From Octopus vulgaris (Eukaryota): DNA of 64,000 nucleotides. Each line of letters begins with the position of its first letter. The stretch's first letter is position 1. Both the position numbers and the translations under genes were made by a program. The notes under the pieces were generated by a model. It ran no database searches and had not been told where the DNA came from. It saw nothing but the letters and a program-made list of their open reading frames with translations. Shown piece after piece: positions 1 to 40,385 of the stretch. Location of the stretch: NCBI GenBank assembly GCA_951406725.2, contig CATOCA020000001.1:2604001-2668000 (forward strand). The letters are read 5' to 3'.

Positions 1-3000
1 CTGCATAGCATCTACCTCGCTCTGTCTGTGTTCGTGTGTTCGTTCTGTCTGCATAGCATAGCATCTACCTCGCTCTGTCTGTGTTCGTGTGTTCGTTCTG
101 TCTGCATAGCATCTACCTCGCTCTGTCTGTGTTCGTGTGTTCGTTCTGTCTGCATAGCATCTACCTCGCTCTGTCTGTGTTCGTGTGTTCGTTCTGTCTG
201 CATAGCATCTACCTCGCTCTGTCTGTGTTCGTGTGTTCGTTCTGTCTGCATAGCATCTACCTCGCTCTGTCTGTGTTCGTGTGTTCGTTCTGTCTGCATA
301 GCATCTACCTCGCTCTGTCTGTGTTCGTGTGTTCGTTCTGTCTGCATAGCATCTACCTCGCTCTGTCTGTGTTCGTGTGTTCGTTCTGTCTGCATAGCAT
401 CTACCTCGCTCTGTCTGTGTTCGTGTGTTCGTTCTGTCTGCATAGCATCTACCTCGCTCTGTCTGTGTTCGTGTGTTCGTTCTGTCTGCATAGCATCTAC
501 CTCGCTCTGTCTGTGTTCGTGTGTTCGTTCTGTCTGCATAGCATCTACCTCGCTCTGTCTGTGTTCGTGTGTTCGTTCTGTCTGCATAGCATCTACCTCG
601 CTCTGTCTGTGTTCGTGTGTTCGTTCTGTCTGCATAGCATCTACCTCGCTCTGTCAGTGTTCGCGTGTTCGTTTTGTCTGCATTACATCTACCTCGCTCT
701 ATCAGTGTTCGTGTGTTCGTTCTGTCTGCATAGCATCTACCTCGCTCTGTCTGTGTTCGTGTGTTCGTTCTGTCTGCATAGCATCTACCTCGCTCTGTCT
801 GTGTTCGTGTGTTCGTTCTGTCTGCATAGCATCTACCTCGCTCTGTCTGTGTTCGTGTGTTCGTTCTGTCTGCATAGCATCTACCTCGCTCTGTCTGTGT
901 TCGTGTGTTCGTTCTGTCTGCATAGCATCTACCTCGCTCTGTCTGTGTTCGTGTGTTCGTTCTGTCTGCATAGCATCTACCTCGCTCTGTCAGTGTTCGT
1001 GTGTTCGTTCTGTCTGCATAGCATCTACCTCGCTCTGTCAGTGTTCGTGTGTTCGTTTTGTCTGCATAGCATCTACCTCGCTCTGTCTGTGTTCGTGTGT
1101 TCGTTCTGTCTGCATAGCATCTACCTCGCTCTGTCAGTGTTCGTGTGTTCGTTCTGTCTGCATAGCATCTACCTCGCTCTGTCTGTGTACGTGTGTTCGT
1201 TCTGTCTGCATAGCATCTACCTCGCTCTGTCAGTGTTCGTGTGTTCGTTCTGTCTGCATAGCATCTACCTCGCTCTGTCAGTGTTCGTGTGTTCGTTCTG
1301 TCTGCATAGCATCTACCTCGCTCTGTCTGTGTTCGTGTGTTCGTTCTGTCTGCATAGCATCTACCTCGCTCTGTCTGTGTTCGTGTGTTCGTTCTGTCTG
1401 CATAGCATCTACCTCGCTCTGTCTGTGTTCGTGTGTTCGTTCTGTCTGCATAGCATCTACCTCGCTCTGTCTGTGTTCGTGTGTTCGTTCTGTCTGCATA
1501 GCATCTACCTCGCTCTGTCAGTGTTCGTGTGTTCGTTCTGTCTGCATAGCATCTACCTCGCTCTGTCTGTGTTCGTGTGTTCGTTCTGTCTGCATAGCAT
1601 CTACCTCGCTCTGTCTGTGTTCGTGTGTTCGTTCTGTCTGCATAGCATCTACCTCGCTCTGTCTGTGTTCGTGTGTTCGTTCTGTCTGCATAGCATCTAC
1701 CTCGCTCTGTCTGTGTTCGTGTGTTCGTTCTGTCTGCATAGCATCTACCTCGCTCTGTCTGTGTTCGTGTGTTCGTTCTGTCTGCATAGCATCTACCTCG
1801 CTCTGTCTGTGTTCGTGTGTTCGTTCTGTCTGCATAGCATCTACCTCGCTCTGTCTGTGTTCGTGTGTTCGTTCTGTCTGCATAGCATCTACCTCGCTCT
1901 GTCTGTGTTCGTGTGTTCGTTCTGTCTGCATAGCATCTACCTCGCTCTGTCTGTGTTCGTGTGTTCGTTCTGTCTGCATAGCATCTACCTCGCTCTGTCT
2001 GTGTTCGTGTGTTCGTTCTGTCTGCATAGCATCTACCTCGCTCTGTCTGTGTTCGTGTGTTCGTTCTGTCTGCATAGCATCTACCTCGCTCTGTCTGTGT
2101 TCGTGTGTTCGTTCTGTCTGCATAGCATCTACCTCGCTCTGTCTGTGTTCGTGTGTTCGTTTTGTCTGCATAGCATCGACCTCGCTCTGTCTGTGTTCGT
2201 GTGCTCGTTCTGTCTGCATAGCATCTACCTCGCTCTGTCTGTGTTCGTTTGTTCGTTCTGTCTGCATAGCATCTACCTCGCTCTGTCTGTGTTCGTGTGT
2301 TCGTTCTGTCTGCATAGCATCTACCTCGCTCTGTCTGTGTTCGTGTGTTCGTTCTGTCTGCATAGCATCTACCTCGCTCTGTCTGTGTTCGTGTGTTCGT
2401 TCTGTCTGCATAGCATCTACCTCGCTCTGTCTGTGTTCGTGTGTTCGTTCTGTCTGCATAGCATCTACCTCGCTCTGTCTGTGTACGTGTGTTCGTTCTG
2501 TCTGCATAGCATATACCTCGCTCTGTCTGTGTTCGTGTGTTCGTTTTGTCTGCATAGCATCGACCGCGCTTTGTCTGTGTACGTGTGTTCGTTCTGTCTG
2601 CATAGCATCTACCTCGCTCTGTCTGTGTTCGTGTGTTCGTTCTGTCTGCATAGCATCTACCTCGCTCTGTCTGTGTACGTGTGTTCGTTCTGTCTGCATA
2701 GCATCTACCTCGCTCTGTCTGTGTTCGTGTGTTCGTTCTGTCTGCATAGCATCTACCTCGCTCTGTCTGTGTTCGTGTGTTCGTTCTGTCTGCATAGCAT
2801 CTACCTCGCTCTGTCTGTGTTCGTGTGTTCGTTCTGTCTGCATAGCATCTACCTCGCTCTGTCTGTGTTCGTGTGTTCGTTCTGTCTGCATAGCATCTAC
2901 CTCGCTCTGTCTGTGTTCGTGTGTTCGTTTTGTCTGCATAGCATCTACCTCGCTCTGTCTGTGTTCGTGTGTTCGTTTTGTCTGCATAGCATCTACCTCG

Positions 3001-40099: not shown

Positions 40100-40385
40100 G
40101 GAAGAAGGGGGTTGGGCAACATAGGTGCAGGTGTGACCATGGACGCCAACTCCGCCGCCATCGACACACGAAAATACATGCGTTAAAATGGAAAAAAATT
40201 ATGTTAAATTATTTTTATATCGTAGACTCATCGTAGACGCGCGCTAATACCCAGAAGGGCTCGATATGAATCACGACTATAAGATACCCGCTTTTGGTTA
40301 AACTGCACCGCAAAATGTGGGAGTAGTTAGGAATCTAAATCGTAGGAGACAGACACTCACACAACTACTGTTTTATATATATAGA
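40100..40385 (-). mobile_element. 5' part of a non-autonomous Helitron-like element (internal region continues into the 22-bp and probably the 48-bp arrays)
   Basis: The minus strand starts A|TCTATATATATAAAACAGTAGTTGTGTGAGTGTCTGTCTCC, a Helitron-type 5' TC end. Bases 40178-40385 are a close reverse complement of the first ~210 bp of the element at 40541-40929. Confidence 0.75.

What the first reader, a model, noticed from the sequence alone, without database searches (positions are those of the whole stretch)
1..40385. The 39-kb satellite may be the expanded interior of a single non-autonomous Helitron
Seen: read on the minus strand, a Helitron-type 5' end (A|TC at 40385) passes through ~285 bp of unique sequence, into the 22-bp array, and then into the 48-bp array with no spacer. 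The two arrays join through a 7-bp microhomology (ACGTGTG, 39281-39287). A short sibling element (40541-40929) shares the first ~210 bp but has no arrays. Known: Helitron/Helentron derivatives carry central tandem repeats that can expand into satellites (DINE-1-type elements in Drosophila, HINE-type elements in oyster). Inference: this locus captures such an expansion, with a two-tier repeat cargo of more than 40 kb.
Basis: partly seen in the sequence, partly recalled or inferred. Interest (0 to 1): 0.7.

Follow-up and report, generated by a model that had tools for sequence, protein, structure and literature searches.

The report
Satellite abutting a broken Helitron
The 64-kb repeat array here is not the inside of a jumping gene but a separate local satellite that sits against the broken front half of one, likely joined by a repair event and then duplicated with its surroundings, an ordinary arrangement, although two other copies of the same jumping gene elsewhere in this genome do enclose 21-34 kb of a different satellite.

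Summary
The coordinates are right; the reading is not, for this locus. The 48-bp array is 63.6 kb long, and its far end joins host DNA with no Helitron 3' end within 75 kb. All 2,808 exact 31-mer matches lie in three C31 regions (2,807) and one C30 array; 0 of 62 Helitron or 22-bp loci scanned hold the unit. The C31 arrays (3.5-63.6 kb) sit in 98-99.9% identical duplicated blocks that extend past the 5' TC, so they were not copied by transposition. The 22-bp array, however, is real cargo: 12 of 17 loci examined are complete 1.0-2.6-kb Helitrons with it inside, including a C3 copy at the same insertion site that is complete and has no 48-bp unit. So the window holds a 3'-truncated Helitron whose 22-bp repeat was likely joined to a resident satellite at ACGTGTG. 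This matches the known 'Helitron box on one side only' arrays of oyster. Raw reads gave no test.

The parts
1..39287 (.). 48-bp satellite array; continues 24.3 kb left of the window to C31:2,579,666 (63.6 kb, ~1,325 units in all); not part of the Helitron
   Evidence: mean divergence from commonest unit 1.0%; no similarity to three family Helitrons or the 22-bp unit beyond shuffles (p 0.24-0.48)
39281..39287 (.). ACGTGTG microhomology shared by a variant 48-bp unit and the 22-bp unit
   Evidence: same junction in 4 C31 copies; 0.037% of random joins share as much
39281..40099 (-). 22-bp minisatellite (37 units, GCGCATGCGC palindrome core): internal variable repeat of a Helitron subfamily, here without the subfamily's tail and 3' half
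40100..40385 (-). 5' part (family nt 1-288) of a non-autonomous Helitron, A|TC start
40386..40457 (.). remnant of a dispersed AT-rich repeat that is the insertion site of the minus-strand Helitron
   Evidence: the C3 copy shows the rest of this repeat resuming after CTAG|T
40541..40929 (+). short sibling Helitron, TC to CTAG|T, hairpin shortened by 10 bp in 3 of 3 C31 copies where it could be read
40930..56377 (.). TA-rich ~27-bp satellite holding five islands of older 48-bp-family units (41312-41968, ~47410-47560, ~48890-49040, ~52280-52480, ~54320-54520)

Best explanation
The window shows a locally confined 48-bp satellite lying against a 3'-truncated non-autonomous Helitron whose own 22-bp repeat was likely joined to the satellite at a 7-bp microhomology after the element had inserted, the whole block then being copied by segmental duplication and the array likely changing length on its own in each copy. 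Steps: (1) shown: a Helitron subfamily (TC, ~290-305 bp, 22-bp repeat, a fixed tail, a second Helitron start, hairpin, CTAG) inserted at an A|T in an AT-rich repeat; the complete state survives on C3. (2) shown: nine other copies of this insertion lack the tail and 3' half, and their 22-bp arrays run into a ~150-bp tandem repeat (C18, C30) or into the 48-bp array (C31). (3) inferred: a break or stalled fork in the palindromic 22-bp array was repaired onto a 48-bp unit at ACGTGTG; the other end of the 48-bp array was joined to host DNA at TACGT. (4) shown: blocks of 13-19 kb left and over 4 kb right are repeated at 98-99.9% on C31; some may be alleles placed twice. (5) inferred: unequal exchange or slippage gave arrays of 3.5 to 63.6 kb.
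For: No Helitron piece or 3' end in the 75 kb left of the array; 0 of 19 subfamily tails lie on C30 or C31. All 2,808 exact 31-mer matches accounted for: 2,807 in three C31 regions, 1 on C30, none reversed. 0 of 62 Helitron, 22-bp or C1 loci scanned hold a 48-family unit. Older 48-family arrays on C30 have their own leader and no Helitron or 22-bp repeat at their ends. The C3 copy at the same site is complete, 1,581 bp, without 48-bp units, and the host repeat resumes after CTAG|T. Empty paralogues of the left flank read CATACGT|AGATAAA (15 of 15 non-array hits fetched lack arrays). Duplicated sequence runs past the 5' TC. In C31 copies the sequence right of the sibling is also replaced by TA/48-family DNA, unlike C3, C18, C30 and dispersed composites. 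Tree of the 5' part: C18+C30+C31 copies one starred branch (100/99); C31 with the two C1 giants as one clade rejected, p-AU 4e-13.
Against: The four C31 copies form one side of a branch only at 71/94 and all ten same-site copies at 79/74 (not starred; midpoint root), so the order of steps 2-3 rests mainly on anatomy. Both ends of the 48-bp array fall at the same ACGT of the unit, which also fits insertion into the 22-bp repeat followed by loss of the distal side. Two C1 copies show that a foreign satellite can grow inside this repeat. No read confirms either junction. The family hairpin folds (-5.8 kcal/mol) but 26 of 200 shuffles fold as well.
Confidence: 0.8

Rival explanations
1. The 48-bp unit first entered the 22-bp repeat of the intact element (for example as a circle recombining at ACGTGTG), grew there as the 10-bp satellite did on C1, and a later deletion removed the distal 22-bp units, tail and 3' end. 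The array would then be a former interior, though never transposed cargo.
For: Both array ends lie at ACGT of the same unit position; the C1 elements of 36.2 and 23.6 kb have this architecture with both ends kept.
Against: All 5 left junctions go straight from host DNA into 48-bp units with no 22-bp unit or tail; the sister copies on C18 and C30 had also lost the tail without any 48-bp unit; the right side of the cassette is likewise embedded in 48-family DNA.
Confidence: 0.13
2. One reading: one Helitron with a two-tier 22+48-bp cargo, moved as a unit and expanded in place.
For: 5' TC, 22-bp tier and gapless junction are real; two-array elements are described in oyster (PMC7492417, sections 7 and 10 read).
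Against: No 3' end; no 48-bp unit in any independently inserted copy; copies share sequence on both sides of the 5' end; the same-site C3 copy is complete without it.
Confidence: 0.03
3. The junction or the several C31 copies are assembly products (chimeric join, alleles placed twice).
For: The 9.36-Mb array ends in noisy sequence at a gap, and the 9.43-Mb copy has a garbled sibling; flank identity of 98-99% could be allelic; no read test.
Against: Identical 48|22 junction in 4 copies and identical left junction in 5 copies, 8.6 Mb apart at the extremes, with copy-specific differences in the 5' part (1.8-2.6%) and in array variants.
Confidence: 0.04

Closest known systems
Helitron-associated satellite arrays with an element box on one side only, Crassostrea gigas (PMC8268682, passages read; PMC12628747, passages read)
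   Same: [quoted passage not shown]
   Different: There the same monomer occurs inside elements and standalone; here the 48-bp unit was never found inside a complete element, and a same-site complete copy dates the join to after insertion. The longest element-associated oyster array reported has 89 monomers.
Cg_HINE non-autonomous Helentrons with central repeats, two of them with two consecutive arrays (PMC7492417, abstract, sections 7 and 10 read); DINE-1/HINE (PMC4067079, passages read)
   Same: The 22-bp subfamily here works like them: conserved ends around a variable central array in a mostly fixed orientation; the two C1 elements carry two kinds of repeat.
   Different: This family has canonical TC/CTAG ends and A|T sites rather than oligo-T sites; oyster arrays there reach 29 monomers, the C1 interiors 21 and 34 kb; the window's 48-bp array is not enclosed.
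Canonical non-autonomous Helitron (definition in PMC4067079, passage read)
   Same: Family copies of ~510-900 bp: A|TC, 16-nt stem-loop 12 nt from the end, CTAG|T.
   Different: The window's minus-strand copy keeps only the first 288 bp and the 22-bp repeat.
Segmental duplication with embedded satellite of variable length (general knowledge, recalled)
   Same: Blocks of over 13 kb at 98-99.9% identity with array length differing 18-fold.
   Different: Nothing essential.

Membership tests
Canonical non-autonomous Helitron (the window's 1-40385 unit as one element) | 5' TC after A | tested here: met
   A|TC at 40385 minus; 18 of 21 dispersed copies A|TC, 3 G|TC of which 2 follow another copy's CTAG
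Canonical non-autonomous Helitron (the window's 1-40385 unit as one element) | 3' CTRR with 16-20-nt palindrome ~11 nt upstream at the far end | tested here: not met
   No hairpin/CTAG match and no family BLAST hit in 75 kb left of the array
Canonical non-autonomous Helitron (the window's 1-40385 unit as one element) | Both flanks rejoin to an empty A|T site | tested here: not met
   Right flank is an AT-rich repeat whose continuation is seen after the C3 copy; the left flank here is other DNA joined at TACGT
Canonical non-autonomous Helitron (the family of 40100-40385) | TC...hairpin CTRR|T at independent sites | tested here: met
   20 of 21 dispersed copies have the 3' end within 1.5 kb (19 CTAG|T, 1 CTAT); C3 copy with empty-site match
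Canonical non-autonomous Helitron (the family of 40100-40385) | An autonomous Rep/Helicase partner with the same ends | not tested
   No search made; no such frame seen by eye among ORFs of the flanks
Helitron/Helentron with central tandem repeats | The array lies between both conserved ends in independent insertions: 22-bp unit | tested here: met
   12 of 17 loci examined complete (978-2,583 bp; 10 with TC start), arrays 165-1,323 bp; 23 of 26 22-bp loci have a family piece within 80 bp
Helitron/Helentron with central tandem repeats | The array lies between both conserved ends in independent insertions: 48-bp unit | tested here: not met
   0 of 62 loci; all 2,808 exact matches in C31 duplicates and one C30 array
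HINE/DINE-1 (Helentron derivatives) | Oligo-T/TT insertion site | tested here: not met
   A|T sites with TC and CTAG ends; feature from PMC4067079 passages
HINE/DINE-1 (Helentron derivatives) | Subterminal inverted repeats | not tested
   Not searched for
Segmental duplication | Over 1 kb at over 90% identity including non-element flanks on both sides (threshold recalled) | tested here: met
   19.6 kb at 98.3% left, 4.2-4.7 kb at 98.5-99.9% right; 13.1 kb at 99.0%; allelic copies not excluded

The most novel reading that the evidence does not exclude
The palindromic 22-bp repeat of this Helitron subfamily is a mobile docking site and nursery for satellites: it is spread by the element, breaks or folds back at GCGCATGCGC, picks up unrelated tandem repeats (48-bp on C31, 10-bp on C1, ~150-bp on C18/C30, an AAATTTT-rich one on C13) and lets them grow to tens of kilobases, giving intact Helitrons of 24 and 36 kb whose interiors are over 90% satellite; the window is such an element that later lost its distal end.
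Probability: 0.2. Interest if true: 0.55.

Novelty: new member of a known kind. Interest (0 to 1): 0.3.

Why it matters
For this locus it matters little: it is one more satellite with a Helitron end on one side, and it shows how such a picture can arise by joining after insertion rather than by growth of cargo, which the same-site complete copy on C3 makes unusually easy to see. The two C1 elements matter more: both ends intact, a shared 22|10 junction, unrelated flanks and 21 versus 34 kb of satellite would make a clean test of the model in which elements carry short arrays and stop moving as these grow. I did not find these repeats described in six paper searches, which cover open-licence papers only.

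Tried and rejected
Reads on the 48|22 junction (window 39236-39335): three raw-read runs, about 3 in 100 of each read, gave 0, 1 and 0 laid reads; the tool marks this as no test and filters drop reads silently, so it says nothing on presence or copy number. One contig set under another species label (X2) holds 52-bp pieces of the 48-bp unit and of the 22-bp unit, with no listed piece spanning the junction; contigs show presence only. The left junction was not tested with reads. Origin of the 48-bp unit from the Helitron or from the 22-bp unit: rejected, scores within shuffles. 48-bp array as 5' cargo of the plus-strand sibling: rejected, no TC at either junction and both flanks duplicated. A gene in the flanks or the array: ORFs seen are repeat read-throughs or look like LINE, Penelope and mariner remnants by eye (no family scan run). 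Ordered copying of whole arrays between C31 sites: no support, the longest shared run holds at most 3 variant units, against 2-5 within single arrays. Look-ups of earlier notes near this place and by sequence returned nothing. Of the 7 reverse one-mismatch 18-mer hits only 1 was located. The pattern search listed 100 of 227 matches; 26 loci from that list were examined.

Full report
Setting. The window is G000:C31:2,604,001-2,668,000 in a 2.8-Gb genome of 227 contigs. It looks octopus-like from recalled repeat features, and earlier AI notes label it so; I did not test this.

Observation. Tandem Repeats Finder gives a 48-bp array at 1-39287 (818.8 copies, 97%) and a 22-bp array at 39281-40099 (37.3 copies, 82%), overlapping in ACGTGTG. 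Only 0.037% of 200,000 random joins of these two arrays share 7 bp or more. The minus strand reads A|TC at 40385. The sibling at 40541-40929 begins TC, ends CTAG|T, aligns to the first ~215 bp and lacks 10 bp of the family hairpin. The 286 bp called unique are a repeat: 552 candidates, 40 scored at 94-100%.

The family is a Helitron. Of the 30 best copies fetched, 21 have unrelated flanks; 18 start A|TC, 20 have a stem-loop and end within 1.5 kb (19 CTAG|T), and none holds a 22-bp or 48-bp unit. This meets the canonical definition (PMC4067079, passages: TC, CTRR, 16-20-nt palindrome ~11 bp from the end, A|T site) and not the T-rich site of HINE/DINE-1. The hairpin folds at -5.8 kcal/mol, but 26 of 200 shuffles do as well, so its support is position and conservation, not energy. 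The other 9 copies share the window's upstream flank and switch to the 22-bp array at the same base; a search with the junction finds 10 such copies: 4 on C31, 4 on C30, 1 on C18, 1 on C3. They descend from one insertion into a dispersed AT-rich repeat.

The 22-bp tier is real cargo. A 28-letter pattern has 147 forward and 80 reverse matches on many contigs. Of 26 loci examined from the 100 listed, 23 have a family piece within 80 bp of an array. Of 17 loci then oriented, 12 are complete elements of 978-2,583 bp: a 5' part, 165-1,323 bp of 22-bp units, usually a fixed tail, a second family start and a 3' end followed by T; 10 of the 12 keep the TC start. The C3 copy, at the window's own insertion site and breakpoint, is one of them: 1,581 bp, and after its CTAG|T the AT-rich host repeat resumes as in empty copies. 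Many arrays switch strand at the palindrome.

The 48-bp tier is not cargo. The array continues 24.3 kb left of the window and totals 63,615 bp. In the 75 kb beyond it there is no family BLAST hit and no hairpin/CTAG match at up to 5 mismatches. The subfamily tail has 19 matches, none on C30 or C31. The far end joins host DNA at TACGT; the same junction occurs at 5 places on C31, and the 15 other hits fetched carry no array, the four closest reading CATACGT|AGATAAA. A 31-mer of the unit has 2,808 forward and 0 reverse matches; counting in the fetched regions finds all of them: 1,118 + 1,312 + 377 on C31 and 1 on C30. None of 62 Helitron, 22-bp or C1 loci scanned holds a 48-family unit. Older relatives with a ~92-bp period lie at C30:1.289-1.306 and 1.364-1.374 Mb with their own leader and no Helitron or 22-bp repeat at the ends. 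The unit resembles neither the Helitron nor the 22-bp unit more than shuffles do.

How the C31 copies arose. The five arrays measure 63.6, at least 49.1 (ends at a gap), 19.7, 18.7 and 3.5 kb; four end in the same 48|22 junction. Flanks match over 13-19.6 kb on the left (98.3-99.0%) and over 4 kb on the right (98.5-99.9%), that is upstream of the 5' TC, which rolling-circle transposition from that end would not copy. Arrays share the same common variants but no ordered run with more than 3 variant units, so length turnover in each copy is inferred. Some copies may be alleles placed twice; the 9.36-9.45 Mb stretch has a gap and noisy sequence. In C3, C18, C30 and dispersed composites the sibling is followed by one common sequence; in 3 of 3 readable C31 copies it is followed by a TA-rich satellite with older 48-family islands. 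The Helitron cassette is thus enclosed by 48-family DNA on both sides: the satellite domain looks like the host. A tree of the 5' part (19 rows, none left out, first 12 bases trimmed, midpoint root) puts the C18, C30 and C31 copies on one starred branch (100/99); the four C31 copies (71/94) and all ten same-site copies (79/74) are not starred, so order of events is not shown by the tree alone.

At C1:16,975,053-17,011,270 (36.2 kb, no N) the order is family 5' part, 22-bp units, 34.0 kb of a 10-bp satellite, a 120-bp spacer, 22-bp units, tail, family pieces, CTAG|T; at C1:107,706,317-107,729,878 (23.6 kb; 299 bases not fetched) it is the same with 21.3 kb of satellite. They share the 22|10 junction, found exactly twice in the genome, have unrelated flanks, and the second lies between two 105-bp inverted arms at 92%, as expected for one insertion into one host element. 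Holding them in one clade with the C31 copies is rejected (p-AU 4e-13), holding the two together is not (p 0.82). The 22-bp repeat also abuts a ~150-bp tandem repeat on C18 and C30 and an AAATTTT-rich repeat on C13. That the palindromic unit promotes such joins is inferred; its fold is modestly stronger than shuffles (z -2.1, 6 of 200), and no matched control for joining frequency was run.

Reads. 24 runs were listed. Three raw-read runs laid 0, 1 and 0 reads on the junction, which is no test; a contig set under another species label holds both units but no listed piece spans the junction. The left junction was not tested.

Comparison with what is known. [quoted passage not shown] Cg_HINE elements with two consecutive arrays are described, with arrays up to 29 monomers (PMC7492417, abstract and sections 7, 10 part 1). 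Supplements were not read. The window works like the one-sided oyster form; it is not a member of the enclosed form. Six searches (listings only, apart from the four papers named) showed no description of these repeats.

Verdict. Observation partly confirmed, interpretation partly supported: Helitron and 22-bp cargo yes, 48-bp interior no. New member of a known kind; interest 0.3, most of it owed to the two C1 elements and the same-site complete copy on C3.

Noticed in passing
G000:C1:16,975,053-17,011,270 (L197, L198, L200-L203) and C1:107,706,317-107,729,878 (L199, L204, L123): Two Helitrons of 36.2 and 23.6 kb with both ends, each enclosing 34.0 or 21.3 kb of a 10-bp satellite inside the 22-bp repeat; shared 22|10 junction, unrelated flanks; the first has several strand switches near its 5' side.
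   Followed up: partly
window 39281-40099: The 22-bp unit carries GCGCATGCGC (20 exact matches), which I recall as the NRF1/erect-wing binding consensus; CpG-rich, alternating purine-pyrimidine. Binding untested.
   Followed up: no
G000:C18:1-9202, C30:1.548-1.568 Mb, C30:9.091-9.104 Mb, C18:20.24 Mb: Blocks where 22-bp arrays alternate with a ~150-bp tandem repeat that resembles a SINE piece (recalled), with inversions; one lies at the very start of C18.
   Followed up: partly
L142 (C15:28.5685-28.5784 Mb): Head-to-tail array of units made of a truncated Helitron 5' part (nt 7-233 or 7-144) plus 22-bp repeats, about ten in 8 kb; fits rolling-circle tandems of 3'-less Helitrons described in PMC12628747 passages.
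   Followed up: no
G000:C30:1.289-1.306 Mb and 1.364-1.374 Mb: Older 48-family arrays with a ~92-bp higher-order period and a shared unique leader; possible birthplace of the unit.
   Followed up: partly
G000:C31:~2,672,900-2,687,300 (5 kb right of the window): A 184-bp tandem array of about 14 kb, with a relative at C30:1.275 Mb.
   Followed up: no
window 61319-62818 (-): 499-codon open frame with a CX2CX4HX4C knuckle, like a LINE ORF1 without a following ORF2; earlier notes describe ORF1-only elements in this genome.
   Followed up: no
window 56824-56942: (GGCTC)n running into (CGTCA)18 inside a TA-bounded element that ends in CTAG upstream.
   Followed up: no
window 1-39287: The 48-bp unit is 16 codons with stop-free frames on both strands, so the array gives long repeat ORFs; no evidence of expression.
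   Followed up: no
L041-L060: The left flank of the array belongs to a repeat family with at least 40 copies, most on C30 and C31, with splice-donor-like motifs; nature not determined.
   Followed up: partly
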